Origin: the human T2T-CHM13v2.0 reference genome, Homo sapiens
Assembly (NCBI RefSeq): GCF_009914755.1
Contig: NC_060936.1
DNA length: 64,000 nucleotides
Strand: one strand, 5' to 3'
Below, in pieces: positions 27,808-38,670 of this stretch; position 1 is the first letter of the stretch, and the number at the start of each line of letters is the position of its first letter. The notes below the pieces were generated by a model. That model was not told the DNA's origin, made no database searches, and was given only the letters and a program-made list of their open reading frames with translations. Made by a program: the position numbers and the translations under genes.

Positions 27808-27959
27808 CTGCTCCTCTTTGTCATCAATCTTAATGAGACTAGAACCCAGATCTTGGCATGACTTCTTACTCTCATTCCAAGTTTTCTCTTCTTTTGAAAA
27901 ATAGTAACACTTTTCTCCATAGCAGGACAATTTTCCTTGACAGGAGGCACAGCCTTTTT
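27808..27959 (-). pseudogene. KLR-like pseudogene A, first C-type lectin domain exon (KLRH-like)
   Basis: ttttcaag|…|gtatgt splice sites; 152 bp, phase 1-0; open frame KGCASCQGKLSCYGEKCYYFSKEEKTWNESKKSCQDLGSSLIKIDDKEEQ with the NK-lectin Cys/CYYF/W pattern. Confidence 0.9.
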
Positions 27960-28744
27960 CTTGAAAACAAAAACAACCACCCACACTCCATCCCCAAGAC
28001 CATTTAGAGACATGTACACTTTACGTACTTCACTGCTTACTTCAGAATGAATTACCAGAAAATAGCATTCCCCTGTGTGCCAAAAGTCTGTATGTTGGAC
28101 ATAGCTCTTCTACCAAATTCTTCAGGGAAAAATACTGTTGAGCCAGACAGCCTCTGACAGACCCAAGGCCACTGTTAGGATTACATTCGGAAATCTTGAC
28201 TTCTCAAGTATAAACAAACTGCACCAATATGGAGAAGTTCTTCCTGCAGGAAGAAATCTACCAAAGTGAATATATGGCAATTATATTAATCCTAAGAGTT
28301 CTATATTGGGCAAACTTATTCACAAGCAAGTAAAATTTACTTACACAAGGAAGTAAAATTACTCAAATCAATATGACAATAGGGTCTTCTTTAGTGAAAT
28401 CAAGTGTTCAATTAAATATAATATAGAAAATAGATTTGATGAGAAAAAGCAAAATTAAAAGCCCTGCCAAAGATCAATGTAAAGTTTTATTGAAATGGTG
28501 CAGAAGGGTTTAATTCTATGGAAAAAAAATCTGTTTGCTATTAGCTTAAGTACTCAGTACATATTTGTACTAGATGGTAAAATGGAGTGATCTTTAACTC
28601 TAGAAAGAAGGTTTTTTTTTTCTTTTTTCTCTTCTATATCTTGTGTTTTACATTTAAAGGAGCTCTGCAAAACTTTATATTATAAAGTTAATATCATGAA
28701 TGGGTTTAATGGAAAATCATTTCATTATCATCATTTACTGAATT

Positions 28745-28872
28745 ATTTTTATTGAATAGATGAGGTTTCACCATGTTGCCCAGGCTGGTCTCAAACTCCT
28801 GGGCTCAAGTGATCTACCTGCATTAACCTCTTCAAGTGCTGGGATTACAGGCATGAGCTACCGCACCTGGCA
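28745..28872 (-). mobile_element. Alu left monomer (FLAM-like)
   Basis: gtttcaccatgttgcccaggctggtctcaaactcctgggctcaagtgatc…ggattacaggcatgagc. Confidence 0.88.
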
Positions 28873-31148
28873 TTTACTGAAATTCTAAAGAACAAAGTGA
28901 ATGATGTTGATGAAGTGGAAGTACAGTCTGGGAAAAACATAAAATATTTTGAAGTGTCAGAACATAAAATGAATTTTTAAATAAAACCATTTATAAATTA
29001 TATTTTTCAGTATATAAAACTAATTATTTATAAAACAAAAGATATAAACTGGAAATTTAAAGAATTCAGCTGGCTTTTACTCCATCTTCAAACAATTATT
29101 TCAAAGTTGTGATTAATATTTGCATTTAAAGGGATTTGTCTCTATGTTTAAGTTTATAATGGATTCATTGAAAGCACATGAGGAAAGAGCTTATACAGCT
29201 ACTTCTAATGTGCAAAAGGAAAGTTAAGATTCCTTGAAAGAAATAGCAATTTCTTCCAAAAAGTCAAGAATAAAAAATGTAAAAGCACAGTCTATGGCTC
29301 TGTTAAAAAAAATTCATCAGAGATTTCCTACACAAAGAGTTTTTATTTACAATTCTGCCTCTATTCACCATTGTTCATTCAACTTCGATTCTACTTGTAA
29401 AAATAAACCAACATCAATTGCATAATCTCTTAACGTTCCCAATTATAACAAATGGAGCTATTGTTCCATTCAGCAATCCACTCCAATATCTATATTCTAG
29501 ACCTGAAATTAAAAGACAAATGAAAGACATCTGGTTTCTAAAAACTGCTATTTCCTTATAACTAATCAATTATCTTCTCCTTTCCTTATCGCCCGCTCAA
29601 GTCCACATAGTGCAGCACTTTATAATTTTGGCAGGACATCTAACAATCTTGCACCGTAGTCTTTATGCAATGAATATTTGTCATCTAAAAACAGTCAGCT
29701 CTGGAACATTCTATCACTCACCATCTCATCTTCACAAGAGCATCTGAAGGCCAGCTGGCAAAAAAATCACAAAACTGTACAGATGCAGATTAATGCAGCT
29801 CCAAATTGATGGTTTTTATAATCATTTAGCCCCTCAACAGTATACAACCTACTTATTGTATCACTCCTTTTTCTCAATTCAACAGATATTTCTATTATTT
29901 AATATTTTTCTAAATTATCTACTAGACCTCCTTGACTGTCCTTTTCAGAAAATGCCCTCATCTGCTACTTGACATAGAAATAGTGACCATCAGGCATAAA
30001 TTCCCTCATCTTCTTGCTTGTCCTCCAACAAATACACTGGTACCCATCCATCTATCTCAGAAAAAAAATTTATCTTCCCACTGAAAAACTCCAAAATTTC
30101 CATCCCTAGTGTGGATATCACCCCCTGTTATGTCCTAAAGAATCATCATCTCTAGCTATTCCACTTCTATTATCATTTTTCCTCTAACATTTTCCCTCCA
30201 ATGTTTCTCTTCTCTTGTATATAATAATCTCAAGCCACTCTTGCTTCCCAGATTTCTATTATTTCTTTTTCCTGCTCTTTAAAACAGAGTTGTCTCTTTT
30301 TAATTTTTAGACCTTGAGGTGCCCGATAGGATTATTCACAATATTTCATTCATAAGACGCTTTTATCATTGCTCCAAGAACTTCTGTTTATTTATTTAGT
30401 TACTCACTTTGTTAGTTGTAACCCAAAACTATAGCTAGGACCATAACCATTACATTTATCTACTTGTATATTTCACTCCTTCCCGTCCTCCTACCTCATT
30501 CAAAAATGTAACTATCATACCGAATCCTATGTGATGAATTCCCTTGATTTATTTTATACATACTTTATTGCTTTGTTATTCCTTAAAATTATTTTTTGTT
30601 TTTAATGTTTTAACTTTATAAAATTGTATGACATTGTACAGAAAATTTGGTTTTTATTTTCACCTCATATTGTCATGCTCCTCTGGGAGAATCAAGGAGG
30701 TGAAGTAGATAATTTACGTAAATATTATCCTACCCCTCCTCTGCTACTTCACATAAAACTAGTGGCTATCAGGCATAAATCCCCTCACCTTCTTGCTTAT
30801 TTATACTAGGGCTGAAATCAACACTGGGGTGGGAGTTTCAGCCTTGTTCAGTGGGAAGAGAAATTTTTTTCTGAGACAGATGGATGGGTCCCTGTGTATT
30901 TGTTGGAGGATTTGCAATCATTATCCCATTAATGGTTATTTGGATAGTTTCGAGATGTTTCAAATTGTTAACAGCACTGCTGTAAATATTCCTGTAAATT
31001 TGCATTGTTGTACTTATGCAAATATTTCTCTTGGATATGTAGTTAGAATTCCTGAGCCATGTTCAGCTTTAGAAGATAAAATCAAACTGTTTCCCAAAGT
31101 GGTTGTATCAATTTATATTTCCTTTAATAACATATAAGAATCATATAA

Positions 31149-31452
31149 GGCCGGGCACAGTGGCTCACGCCTGTAATCCCAGCAATTTGGGAGGCTGAGG
31201 CGGGTGGATCATTTGAGGTCAGGAGTTCAAGACCAGCCTGACCAACATGGTGAAACCCCATCTCTACTAAAAATACAAAAATTAGCTGGGCATGGTGGCG
31301 TATGCCTGTAGTCCCAACTACTTGGGAGGCTGAGACAGGAGAATCACTTGAACCTGGGAGGTGGAGGTTGCATTAAGCTGAGATAGTCCCATGGCACTCC
31401 AGCCTGGGTGACAGAGCGAGACTCCATCTCAAAAAAGATAAATAAATAAAAG
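31149..31452 (+). mobile_element. AluSx-like
   Basis: Full dimer; TSD aagaatcat(a/g)ta. Confidence 0.95.
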
Positions 31453-36900: not shown

Positions 36901-37950
36901 GCAACAAAAGCCAAAATTGACAAATGGGATCTCATTAAACTAAAGAGCTTCTGTACAGCAAAAGAAACTACCATCAGAGTGAACAGGCAACCTACAAAAT
37001 GGGAGAAAATTTTTGCAATCTACTCATCTGACAAAGGGCTAATATCCAGAATCTACAATGAACTCAAACAAATTTACAGGAAAAAAACGAACAACCCCAT
37101 CAAAAAGTGGGCAAAGGACATGAACAGACACTTCTCAAAAGAAGACATTTATGCAGCCAAAAAACACATGAAAAAATGCTCACCATCACTGGCCTTCAGA
37201 GAAATGCAAATCAAAACCACAATGAGATACCATTTCACACCAGTTAGAATGGCAATCATTAAAAAGTCAGGAAACAACAGGTGCTGGAGAGGATGTGGAG
37301 AAATAGGAACACTTTTACACTGTTGGTGGGACTGTAAACTAGTTCAACCATTGTGGAAGTCAGTGTGGCAATGCCTCAGGGATCTAGAACTAGAAATACC
37401 ATTTGACCCAGCCATCCCATTACTGGGTATATACCCAAAGGACTATAAATCATGCTGCTATAAAGACACATGCACACGTATGTTTATTGTGGCACTATTC
37501 ACAATAGCAAAGACTTGGAACCAACCCAAATGTCCAACAATGATAGACTGGATTAAGAAAATGTGGCACATATACACCATGGAATACTATGCAGCCATAA
37601 AAAATGAAGAGTTCATGTCCTTTGTAGGGACATGGATGAAATTGGAAATCATCATTCTCAGTAAACTATCACAAGGACAAAAAACCAAACACCGCATGTT
37701 CTCACTCATAGGTGGGAATTGAACAATGAGAACACATGGACACAGGAAGGGGAACATCACACTCTGGGGACTGTTGTGGGGTGGGGGGAGGGTGGAGGGA
37801 TAGCATTAGGAGATATACCTAATGCTAAATGACAAGTTAATGGGTGCAGCACACCAGCATGGCACATGTATACATATGTAACTAACCTGCACATTGTGCA
37901 CATGTACCCTAAAACTTAAAGTATAATAATAATAAAATAAAATTTAAGAA
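33973..37950. mobile_element. 5'-truncated, 5'-inverted L1 (L1PA3-like): antisense segment ~33969-36032, sense segment ~36033-37950
   Basis: Minus-strand ORF2 EN/RT ORFs (33917-35947); plus-strand ORF2 C-terminal half (36289-37722); 3'UTR and A-tail; TSD aaggagatatgcaa at 33959-33972 and 37951-37964. Confidence 0.95.
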
Positions 37951-38058
37951 AAGGAGATATGCAATATCAAATATATATGAACATAATTATGATTTCATTT
38001 TTTTCTTACTTGACAATATATTTTCAGAAAACAAGAAAATAAACAAAAAACAGTTTAC

Positions 38059-38155
38059 CTTTACTTTTGTGAGCTGAACGTCTTCCGTTCTTTCATTTTG
38101 AAAAGGGGAATTTTGTCTCTGTGTATGTCACTCTCTCCTCACTCATATCTGAGGG
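38059..38155 (-). pseudogene. KLR-like pseudogene A, first coding (cytoplasmic ITIM-type) exon with a nonsense codon
   Basis: ctttgactgcag acceptor; ATG at 38146; MSEERVTYTETKFPFSK*KNGRRSAHKSK; AG|gtaaac donor in phase 1; VTYxx motif typical of inhibitory KLRs. Confidence 0.75.
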
Positions 38156-38571
38156 CTGCAGTCAAAGAACACAGCAAGAATCCTTTCGAACAGCATAATT
38201 CTTCAGTTGAAATGGGAACATTCATCATGAAGGAATGGAGAGACCTCAATAAGTAATAAGCATGATAGTCAAGAAAAAGTGAAATAAAGTAACCATTTGT
38301 CAGGGAATATCAGAAAATATGATTTTGTAGACTTCTCTTTGTGATGTTTTAGAACAGAGATCCTACATAGCTAAATAATAGTTTGTGACAGTGTACAGAC
38401 ATGTTATATTAGACTTTTAGGCTGTCTTTTAGGTAATTTAATTGCTTGCCAAAAGTTAGAAATTAATGTTTTACACACAAATATCCAGATGTATATCTTC
38501 TCTTGAAAATTGCATGTGAACATTTAGTGCCTGTATTAGTCCCAAGTGATAACCATATTATGATACTGAAT

Positions 38572-38670
38572 TGAGTCACCTTTAGCAAGGATACACGTTC
38601 TAATTCAACACAGTCTGCAATCTGCCAGATTATCTTATACCACACCCCATCACTTCCTGATCTTATCCAT
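38572..38670 (-). promoter_or_regulatory. Candidate promoter and non-coding first exon of KLR-like pseudogene A
   Basis: AAG|gtgact donor at 38580; AP-1 TGAGTCA at 38572-38578; RUNX ACCACA at 38639-38644; ETS ACTTCCTG at 38652-38659; GATA CTTATC at 38662-38667. Confidence 0.4.

What the first reader, a model, noticed from the sequence alone, without database searches (positions are those of the whole stretch)
27808..38670. Fossil inhibitory NK lectin receptor gene (KLRH-like) reconstructable exon by exon on the minus strand
Seen, in correct order and strand: a candidate non-coding exon ending at 38580; a cytoplasmic exon at 38155-38059 (MSEERVTYTETK…, degenerate ITIM, TGA at codon 18); a TM exon at 33800-33730 (G|AC joins in phase to give DFLWHTVAVTLGV, internally shortened, donor GT>AT); and a still-open 152-bp CTLD exon at 27959-27808 with intact splice sites, in which the conserved W has become L (KLSCYG). 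Established: KLR genes have this type-II exon architecture, the first CTLD exon of KLRC/KLRD/KLRK is 152 bp, and KLRH-type genes lie between KLRC and KLRA in several non-human mammals with no functional human gene. Inference: this is an orthologous or paralogous remnant of a lost primate NK receptor. I could not identify the stalk exon or the middle (WIGL) CTLD exon.
Basis: partly seen in the sequence, partly recalled or inferred. Interest (0 to 1): 0.85.

Follow-up and report, generated by a model that had tools for sequence, protein, structure and literature searches.

The report
Fossil KLRH natural-killer receptor gene

Summary
The finding is real. Five exons of one type II lectin-receptor gene lie in order on the minus strand: a 5'UTR exon (45853-45697), a cytoplasmic exon (38148/38155-38059), a TM exon (33800-33730), a stalk exon (about 28672-28561) and the first CTLD exon (27959-27808).

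Each matches one mammalian family that contains mouse and hamster proteins named Klrh1. In the CTLD exon, identity to 20 family members is 52-80% (mean 68). It is 53% to human KLRA1P and 40-46% to a neighbouring family.

The gene is dead:
- TGA at codon 18.
- ITIM decayed to VTYTET.
- TM exon is 71 nt against 90-96 nt in two related genes, and its donor reads AT.
- No second or third CTLD exon was found anywhere in the genome.

The EIF2S3B retrocopy downstream is a clean insertion with a 14-bp target duplication, so it did not remove those exons.

AU tests on the tree did not reject other placements. The KLRH assignment therefore rests on exon-by-exon identity and on homology of the untranslated exon.

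A second, different KLR pseudogene lies just upstream, at about 68.2-60.3 kb.

This is a new member of a known kind, of moderate interest.

The parts
45697..45853 (-). Exon 1 (5' untranslated) of the KLRH-type pseudogene. The 5' limit is unknown; homology starts at 45853. The donor is CAG|GTATTA.
   Evidence: N-terminal read-through peptides of 5 of 5 family gene models hit here: manatee P0041 E 4.3e-11, deer P0005 6.8e-8, P0094 8.2e-8, P0113 3.2e-6, mole P0037 0.18. Sequence.
38059..38155 (-). Exon 2, cytoplasmic tail. ATG at 38146-38144, decayed ITIM VTYTET, TGA at codon 18 (38095-38093), donor GT intact. The acceptor is at 38157-38156 or, as the relatives' models suggest, at 38150-38149.
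   Evidence: tblastn: horse P0007 E 6.6e-6 (55% of 31), P0009 0.004, P0005 0.007, P0008 0.008. It is the only genome-wide hit for P0007 residues 1-32. RefSeq lncRNA LOC105369657 has an exon 38059-38200 ending at this donor (hub table).
33730..33800 (-). Exon 3, transmembrane. It is 71 nt, against 90 nt in KLRA1P and 96 nt in the neighbouring pseudogene. The first 13 codons are in frame with exon 2. The hydrophobic core is missing, and the donor reads AT (ATGAGT).
   Evidence: DFLWHTVAVTLGV is the best-scoring segment against 12 of 12 relatives' TM segments. A second piece, LAFAGLRYMH (33757-33728), matches LAITGLGYMY-type ends in another frame for 4 of 12. Top window hit of the KLRA1P TM exon, E 0.010.
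28561..28672 (-). It reads ..SSFKCKTQDIEEKKEKKNLLSRVKDHSILPSST. Exact ends are uncertain: acceptors at 28674-73 or 28666-65, GT at 28570-69 or 28560-59.
   Evidence: tblastn: deer P0005 E 1.9e-5, horse 6.4e-4, elephant 0.010, shrew 0.23, muntjac 0.38, so 5 of 7 queries. Family HMM E 0.0057. Sequence.
27808..27959 (-). Exon 5, first CTLD exon. It is 152 nt, open, with AG and GT intact. W to L at residue 10 (TTG, 27930-27928).
   Evidence: PDB phmmer: mouse NKG2D 1.1e-9, Ly49A 1.3e-9. 72-88% identical to 8 mammalian proteins. HMM E 2.2e-25. Best genome-wide hit of horse P0007.

Best explanation
This is an unprocessed pseudogene, the in-place relic of a KLRH-type (KLRH1 subfamily) natural-killer receptor gene.

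The ancestral gene encoded a type II membrane protein. It had a short cytoplasmic tail with one ITIM, a single TM helix, a short stalk and a C-type lectin-like domain built from three exons. From the relatives, I infer that it bound MHC class I and damped NK-cell activation through the phosphorylated ITIM.

The human copy cannot make such a protein. Translation stops at codon 18. The ITIM has lost its Y+3 hydrophobic residue. The TM exon has lost its core and its splice donor. The last two lectin-domain exons are gone.

What remains active, at most, is splicing signal: a predicted lncRNA uses the donor of exon 2.

Shown here: the exons, their order, their lesions and their family likeness. Inferred: the ancestral function, and that the loss happened within primates.
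For: Five exons are collinear on one strand (45853 > 38155 > 33800 > 28672 > 27959). Each finds its best or only match in one protein family.

The family is named by mouse, Cricetulus and Phodopus Klrh1 entries. Its members share the N-terminus MSEERVTY.EL.

CTLD exon identity is 52-80% to 20 family rows (mean 68). It is 40-46% to 4 rows of the neighbouring family and 53% to KLRA1P.

In the tree, the human pieces sit in the 37-row clade with Mus Klrh1, support 91/93. The nearest rows are horse, beaver, buffalo and elephant.

Homology extends to the untranslated exon 1, which argues for the same gene rather than a shared domain.

The lesions were read directly.

No exon 6 or 7 was found in the window plus 20 kb on each side. 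No KLRH-level match to residues 147-222 of P0007 exists elsewhere in the genome.

Introns are retained, including a 4-kb masked repeat in intron 2 (hub table), so this is not a retrocopy.

None of the named hits comes from a primate.

Literature passages: rat KLRH1 is an inhibitory MHC class I receptor, and KLRH was 'deleted' in the human lineage (PMC5350243). Cat gene order is KLRC-KLRJ-KLRL-KLRH-KLRA, with KLRH on the KLRA strand (PMC11484026 supplement).
Against: AU tests do not reject trees that join the human pieces to KLRA1P (p 0.103, delta lnL 5.8) or to the neighbouring family (p 0.248, delta lnL 5.2).

A tree built on the N-terminal half alone is an unresolved comb.

The clade support of 91/93 is below the tool's star threshold.

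The TM exon matches family proteins only weakly by tblastn (E 2.1 and 3.7). The Pfam Ly49 model found nothing in the window.

The 50-aa CTLD piece scores 20.1 bits on Lectin_C, under the 22.6 cut-off.

The comparison set was gathered with the human exon and a horse protein as queries. The 'near-consensus' look of the human exon may therefore partly reflect how the set was chosen.

In the cat table KLRH lies next to KLRA. In human, a second pseudogene lies between this relic and KLRA1P.
Confidence: 0.88

Rival explanations
1. The relic is a second Ly49 (KLRA) paralogue, sister to KLRA1P, not a KLRH gene.
For: KLRA1P is the closest human paralogue of the CTLD exon (53%). Its TM exon gives the best TM match in the window (E 0.010). 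The AU test does not reject a human-relic plus KLRA1P clade (p 0.103).
Against: Identity to KLRH-family proteins is far higher (mean 68%, up to 80-88%). The KLRA1P cytoplasmic exon finds nothing at 38 kb among the 30 hits listed, while KLRH proteins do. The stalk exon codes for about 34-37 residues, as in KLRH proteins, against 78 in KLRA1P. KLRA1P is a long branch (1.34), and the constraint may move it rather than the relic.
Confidence: 0.04
2. The relic belongs to another Ly49-group subfamily (KLRJ, or KLRH2/KLRL). It only resembles KLRH1 because the sampled set lacks named members of those groups.
For: No protein named KLRJ, KLRL or KLRH2 was available. The AU test does not reject joining the relic to the unnamed neighbouring family (p 0.248). 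By gene order in the cat table, the slot next to KLRC is KLRJ's.
Against: The relic is 40-46% identical to that neighbouring family against 52-80% to the Klrh1 clade. All 15 carnivore rows seen in the family carry an ITIM-type or derived tail, as the paper describes for KLRH and not for KLRJ. In print, KLRH2/KLRL lies on the opposite strand to KLRA, while this relic is on the KLRA strand. Taxa with family members in my hits include the orders that the 2026 paper lists for KLRH: tethytherians, perissodactyls, lagomorphs, rodents, ruminants and carnivorans, with shrew and moles as kin of its hedgehog. I saw no tree shrew.
Confidence: 0.05
3. The locus is not just dead. The intact CTLD exon and the exon-2 donor persist because they serve a transcript, such as lncRNA LOC105369657 or a short soluble product.
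For: The CTLD exon is open with both splice sites intact. A RefSeq lncRNA model ends an exon exactly at the exon-2 donor (hub table). PMC5350243 speculates that CTLD-only KLRH genes of other species may be soluble receptors.
Against: The lncRNA model is predicted only, and it does not include the CTLD exon. A 50-codon frame staying open is not unlikely by chance. The conserved W is lost. Two of the three CTLD exons are missing, so no lectin fold can form.
Confidence: 0.03

Closest known systems
Rodent Klrh1 (rat KLRH1, an inhibitory MHC class I receptor; mouse Klrh1)
   Same: Same protein family by sequence: named Mus, Cricetulus and Phodopus entries sit in the clade that holds the human relic. 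It has the same type II layout and a one-ITIM tail, and it lies in the NK complex on the KLRA strand.
   Different: The human copy is broken (stop, TM deletion, lost donor, two exons missing). Its motif is VTYTET. Identity of the CTLD exon to mouse Klrh1 is 66%.
KLRH genes of carnivores, horse, ruminants, pig, bats, afrotheres and rabbit (mostly automatic names in databases)
   Same: These are the nearest sequences. Examples are horse P0007 (79% in the CTLD exon, MSEERVTYTE identical), muntjac P0004 (88%) and elephant P0003. The 5'UTR exon is shared with deer, manatee and mole models and two unnamed family models (P0094, P0113).
   Different: Those are open reading frames of 200-230 residues with all three CTLD exons. 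The human one is not.
Human KLRA1P (LY49L), the known Ly49 pseudogene 70 kb away
   Same: Same gene group, same strand, same exon plan, and also a non-functional relic of an MHC class I lectin receptor.
   Different: KLRA1P keeps all coding exons and is annotated and transcribed. This relic has lost two exons and is unannotated in the RefSeq table given. Identity is 53% in the CTLD exon, and KLRA1P has a long 78-residue stalk exon.
'Vestigial KLRH-like exons' next to KLRA in cattle, goat and pig (PMC5350243)
   Same: They are also isolated exon-sized KLRH remains of about 150 bp in the KLRC-KLRA interval, on the KLRA strand (passages).
   Different: Only two exons are reported there. The same paper states that KLRH was not found in human GRCh38.

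Membership tests
KLRH (KLRH1 subfamily) killer-cell lectin-like receptors | Sequence groups with rodent Klrh1 rather than with other KLR subfamilies | tested here: met
   CTLD exon is 52-80% identical to 20 clade rows, against 40-46% (neighbouring family) and 53% (KLRA1P). The ML tree places it in the 37-row Klrh1 clade, support 91/93.
KLRH (KLRH1 subfamily) killer-cell lectin-like receptors | Tree topology excludes other subfamilies | tested here: inconclusive
   AU p 0.103 (with KLRA1P) and 0.248 (with the neighbouring family). The tree on the N-terminal half is unresolved, and its AU test was left unfinished. No named KLRJ, KLRL or KLRH2 sequence was at hand.
KLRH (KLRH1 subfamily) killer-cell lectin-like receptors | Cytoplasmic ITIM (I/V/L-x-Y-x-x-I/V/L; consensus as given in PMC11484026) | tested here: not met
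   Human reads V-T-Y-T-E-T, where relatives read VTYTEL, VTYAEL or VMYTDL. The homologous exon is present, but the motif has decayed.
KLRH (KLRH1 subfamily) killer-cell lectin-like receptors | Complete type II gene: tail, TM, stalk and three CTLD exons in an open frame | tested here: not met
   Five of seven exons were found. There is TGA at codon 18, a 71-nt TM exon without a GT donor, and no exon 6 or 7. This makes it a pseudogene, not a working member.
KLRH (KLRH1 subfamily) killer-cell lectin-like receptors | Lies in the NK complex between KLRC and KLRA, on the KLRA strand | tested here: met
   The hub table puts KLRC1 below and KLRA1P above the locus, all on the minus strand. KLRA1P exons were confirmed at C12:10.462-10.472 Mb. 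The cat table gives the same order and strand.
KLRH (KLRH1 subfamily) killer-cell lectin-like receptors | Binds MHC class I and inhibits NK cells | not testable with these tools
   This is known for rat KLRH1 only, from citations in passages. No product is possible from the human locus.
C-type lectin-like domain (Pfam PF00059) | Scores over the curated cut-off | tested here: inconclusive
   The 50-residue third of a domain scores 20.1 bits against a cut-off of 22.6. PDB chains of NKG2D, Ly49 and CD94 match at E 1e-9 to 4e-7. Full-length relatives score 63-70 bits.
KLRA (Ly49) | Long stalk exon and Ly49-type CTLD | tested here: not met
   The stalk exon is about 94-112 nt, against the 78-residue KLRA1P stalk. 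The CTLD exon is 53% identical. The KLRA1P tail exon has no match here.
Unprocessed pseudogene | Introns kept, parental position kept, disabling lesions | tested here: met
   Exons are spread over 18 kb with splice sites, inside the NK complex. Lesions are listed above.

The most novel reading that the evidence does not exclude
The human genome keeps two tandem, so far undescribed fossils of Ly49-group inhibitory lectin receptors between KLRC1 and KLRA1P. One is the KLRH1-type gene at 45.9-27.8 kb. The other is a different ITIM-bearing gene at about 68.2-60.3 kb.

If so, the ancestral primate NK complex would have held at least three such genes (KLRA, KLRH and a KLRJ/KLRL-like one), and these decayed in place rather than being deleted. 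The KLRH CTLD exon has stayed close to the family consensus. Lesion-by-lesion dating across primates could then time the hand-over from lectin-type to KIR-type MHC class I recognition.
Probability: 0.5. Interest if true: 0.55.

Novelty: new member of a known kind. Interest (0 to 1): 0.45.

Why it matters
Comparative papers state that KLRH and KLRJ were deleted in the human lineage (PMC5350243), and they list KLRH for several orders but not for primates (PMC11484026, PMC13756075). These are the passages I read.

A recognisable in-place relic changes 'deleted' to 'decayed'. It fixes where the gene stood in the ancestral primate NK complex. It also gives discrete lesions that can be dated on the primate tree: a stop, a TM deletion, a donor loss, loss of two exons and a retrocopy insertion.

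This bears on when primates gave up lectin-type MHC class I receptors in favour of KIR. It has no direct medical weight. The locus deserves a pseudogene annotation, so that its exons are not misread in lncRNA models.

Tried and rejected
Searches and scans:
- Reading whole frames through with X for a Pfam scan (after one search failed on stop codons) lost even the known CTLD hit, so I dropped it.
- The Pfam Ly49 model over the genome found KLRA1P but nothing in the window.
- KLRA1P stalk, CTLD2 and CTLD3 peptides gave only chance-level hits.

Candidate pieces:
- A third CTLD1-like piece at 17382-17299 is the best non-self hit of the exon (blastn E 0.012, 61% of 84 nt). Its score of 18 is barely above background tiles at 17, and part of the protein match is a pyrimidine tract. 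It is unconvincing.
- 'TWVMGSSLSQTL' at 16123-16088 lies in what I recognise from memory as an L1 3' end, so I take it as chance.
- 'YRYWSGL' at 29506-29447 (E 2.8-10) is out of exon order, so I take it as chance.
- 'WIGLS' at 62229-62215 may be a truncated exon of the second pseudogene, but it has no statistical support.

Attempts to name the family of the second pseudogene:
- PDB searches do not discriminate.
- The protein atlas gives only general KLR/CLEC names.
- Pfam gives the same two domains for both families.
- Translating the published bovine KLRJ1 primers gives WENYDNS and NVCVYGS, but 7-mers match many rows equally well.

Trees: the AU tests and the N-terminal-half tree did not sharpen the placement.

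Sources I could not use:
- Hao et al. 2006 is not held.
- PMC3665701 holds no KLRH, KLRJ or KLRI term.

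
Full report
**What is there**

- 38146-38060 gives MSEERVTYTETKFPFSK, then TGA, with a GT donor after 38059.
- 33800-33730 follows an AG. Joined to the last G of the previous exon, it reads DFLWHTVAVTLGV..., and it is followed by ATGAGT instead of a GT donor.
- 27959-27808 is a 152-nt open exon between AG and GT. 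It reads KGCASCQGKLSCYGEKCYYFSKEEKTWNESKKSCQDLGSSLIKIDDKEEQ.

This last peptide matches solved NK lectin receptors: mouse NKG2D at E 1.1e-9, Ly49A at 1.3e-9, and NKG2A and CD94 at about 1e-8 to 4e-7. As a third of a domain, it falls just under the Pfam Lectin_C cut-off, at 20.1 against 22.6 bits.

**Which gene it comes from**

In the human genome the exon is unique. Its next-best relative is the matching exon of KLRA1P, at only 53% identity. KLRG1-, KLRC-, KLRD- and KLRK-region exons follow at 40-49%.

A protein search gave a very different picture. Eight mammalian proteins are 72-88% identical to the exon: elephant, muntjac, red deer, shrew, horse, beaver, and one unnamed. Several of them carry Lectin_C plus the Ly49 N-terminal Pfam domain.

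Searching on with the horse protein gave 39 hits among 86 candidates. Searching with a Peromyscus protein gave 26 among 83. These showed one family spread over horses, ruminants, pig, bats, carnivores, moles and shrews, rabbit, rodents, elephant and manatee.

Three entries carry curated-looking names. [quoted passage not shown] One reads 'Klrh1' (Phodopus). None of the named hits in these three searches comes from a primate.

**The other exons**

I ran seven family proteins against the window.
- All seven hit the CTLD exon (E 2.6e-22 to 1.9e-25 and similar).
- Four hit the cytoplasmic exon. The horse alignment is MSEERVTYTELKLPYSKKQRNKRHPTRKKGE against MSEERVTYTETKFPFSK*KNGRRSAHKSKGK, at E 6.6e-6.
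This is the stalk exon, ..FKCKTQDIEEKKEKKNLLSRVKDHSILPSST (deer E 1.9e-5).

A family HMM over 7059 ORFs of a 104-kb stretch (the window plus 20 kb on each side) ranked the exons as follows: CTLD exon E 2.2e-25, stalk 0.0057, tail 0.11 (cut short by the stop), TM piece 4.4.

Some gene models read through their 5'UTR exon. The resulting N-terminal extensions of five out of five such models match 45853-45698, which ends in CAG|GT (manatee E 4.3e-11). So exon 1 lies 7.5 kb upstream of exon 2.

Homology in an untranslated exon is a good sign that this is the same gene, not merely the same domain.

**The TM exon**

It is 71 nt. The matching exon is 90 nt in KLRA1P and 96 nt in the neighbouring relic.

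Its first 13 codons give the best-scoring segment against all 12 relatives tested, for example FLWHTVAVTLG against a jaguar protein's FPWHIVAVTLG. A second piece, LAFAGLRYMH (33757-33728), matches the LAITGLGYMY-type end of the helix in a different frame for 4 of the 12.

Only five bases lie between the two pieces, where relatives have six codons. I read this as a frameshifting internal deletion of about 13 nt that removed the hydrophobic core. This rests on protein-level comparison only.

**What is missing**

No second or third CTLD exon of this gene turned up:
- not in the window or in 20 kb on either side, with 12 proteins and two HMMs on both strands;
- not elsewhere in the genome with the horse protein.

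Since the first CTLD exon is still about 70% identical to its relatives, sister exons left in place should be visible. I infer they were deleted.

The EIF2S3B retrocopy sits 1.8 kb downstream on the other strand. It is flanked by a 14-base direct repeat (23003-23016 and 25966-25979) and ends in a poly(A) run. That makes it a clean insertion, not the cause of the loss.

**Placement on a tree**

An ML tree of 46 rows puts the human pieces inside a 37-row clade with Mus and Cricetulus Klrh1, horse, carnivores, artiodactyls, afrotheres, rabbit and beaver. Support is 91/93. The inner order looks roughly like the species tree.

Six unnamed representatives form a separate clade (96/98). KLRA1P stands apart.

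The test results are weaker than the picture:
- The AU test does not reject joining the relic to KLRA1P (p 0.103).
- It does not reject joining it to the six-row family (p 0.248).
- A tree on the N-terminal half alone is a comb, and its AU run was not finished.

The assignment therefore rests mainly on identity per exon and on the tail and 5'UTR exons, which match only this family.

In the CTLD exon the human sequence averages 68% identity to 20 family rows. Each family member's own mean identity to the other 19 runs from 47% to 69%. Only one column where at least 90% of the family agrees differs in human: W to L.

This near-consensus look fits slow neutral drift after loss of function. It may also partly reflect that the set was gathered with the human and horse sequences as queries.

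**Comparison with print**

Passages of PMC5350243 say three things:
- Rat KLRH binds MHC class I and is inhibitory.
- KLRJ and KLRH were not found in human GRCh38.
[quoted passage not shown]'

PMC11484026 (passages, sections 3.3-3.4 and passages of supplementary file 2) describes carnivore KLRH as ITIM-bearing, homologous to mouse Klrh1, and expanded in felids and mustelids. This fits the carnivore rows I saw. It lists the cat order as KLRC-KLRJ-KLRL(+)-KLRH1-4-KLRA.

PMC13756075 (passages and one section) splits KLRH into KLRH1 and KLRH2. [quoted passage not shown] Six full-text searches found no paper describing a human KLRH relic. Hao et al. 2006 is not held. The FASTA supplements of the carnivore paper and the supplements of the 2026 paper could not be read, and they might bear on this.

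The RefSeq table supplied with the finding has no pseudogene here. It lists only lncRNA models, one of which ends an exon at the exon-2 donor.

**How it works**

It does not work. The ancestral protein would have been a type II, ITIM-bearing lectin-like receptor. The human locus has five disabling features:
1. A stop at codon 18.
2. A decayed ITIM.
3. A gutted TM exon.
4. A lost splice donor.
5. Only one of the three lectin-domain exons.

I put 0.88 on 'unprocessed KLRH1-type pseudogene'.

**A second relic**

Upstream on the same strand lies a different gene's remains.
- A 96-nt TM exon (63052-62957) has both splice sites and an internal TAA. It is 70% identical to an unnamed 256-residue representative, P0143.
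- A last CTLD exon (60430-60313) is 62% identical to the same protein, at E 8.6e-11.
- Beyond the window, a 90-nt tail exon (L011:4135-4224, equal to 68135-68224) has a VEYALI motif and a TGA.

These are the best genome-wide hits of P0143. I could not name its subfamily.

Noticed in passing
window 63052-62957 and 60430-60313 (minus); L011:4135-4224 (= window 68135-68224, minus): A second, different KLR pseudogene lies just upstream of the KLRH relic. Its TM exon (96 nt, AG/GTAAGT intact, in-frame TAA) is 70% identical to the unnamed representative P0143 (E 8.5e-6). Its last CTLD exon is 62% identical to P0143 (E 8.6e-11). A probable tail exon carries an ITIM-like VEYALI motif and a TGA (E 0.18). 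No stalk, first or second CTLD exon was found. The subfamily is unresolved (KLRJ-, KLRL/KLRH2- or KLRA-like). The span of lncRNA LOC105369658 (54508-68285) covers it.
   Followed up: partly
window 23003-25979 (+): The EIF2S3B retrocopy is flanked by a 14-base direct repeat (23003-23016 and 25966-25979) and ends in a poly(A) run. It is therefore a simple insertion into the 3' flank of the KLRH relic, on the opposite strand.
   Followed up: yes
window 17382-17299 (minus): A weak likeness to the second half of the KLRH CTLD exon (61% of 84 nt, blastn E 0.012) starts at the acceptor of the last exon of lncRNA LOC105369657. It is barely above background, and it could be either a very old exon relic or chance.
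   Followed up: partly
window 38059-38200 (minus): The RefSeq lncRNA model LOC105369657 has an exon that ends exactly at the donor of the KLRH tail exon. The old splice site therefore seems still to be used in predicted transcripts (hub table).
   Followed up: no
window 62229-62215 (minus): An exact WIGLS, followed at once by GTAAAG, lies between the TM and last CTLD exons of the second relic. That is where its middle CTLD exon would be expected. It is too short to test.
   Followed up: partly
L008, G000:C12:10198262-10198405 (+): The 152-nt first CTLD exon of KLRD1 appears to be followed by GC rather than GT, by my reading of the flank. I did not check this against an annotation.
   Followed up: no
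protein P0004 (muntjac): One family member from a deer relative also reads KLSCYG at the position where the human relic has lost the conserved W. The change is therefore not unique to human.
   Followed up: no
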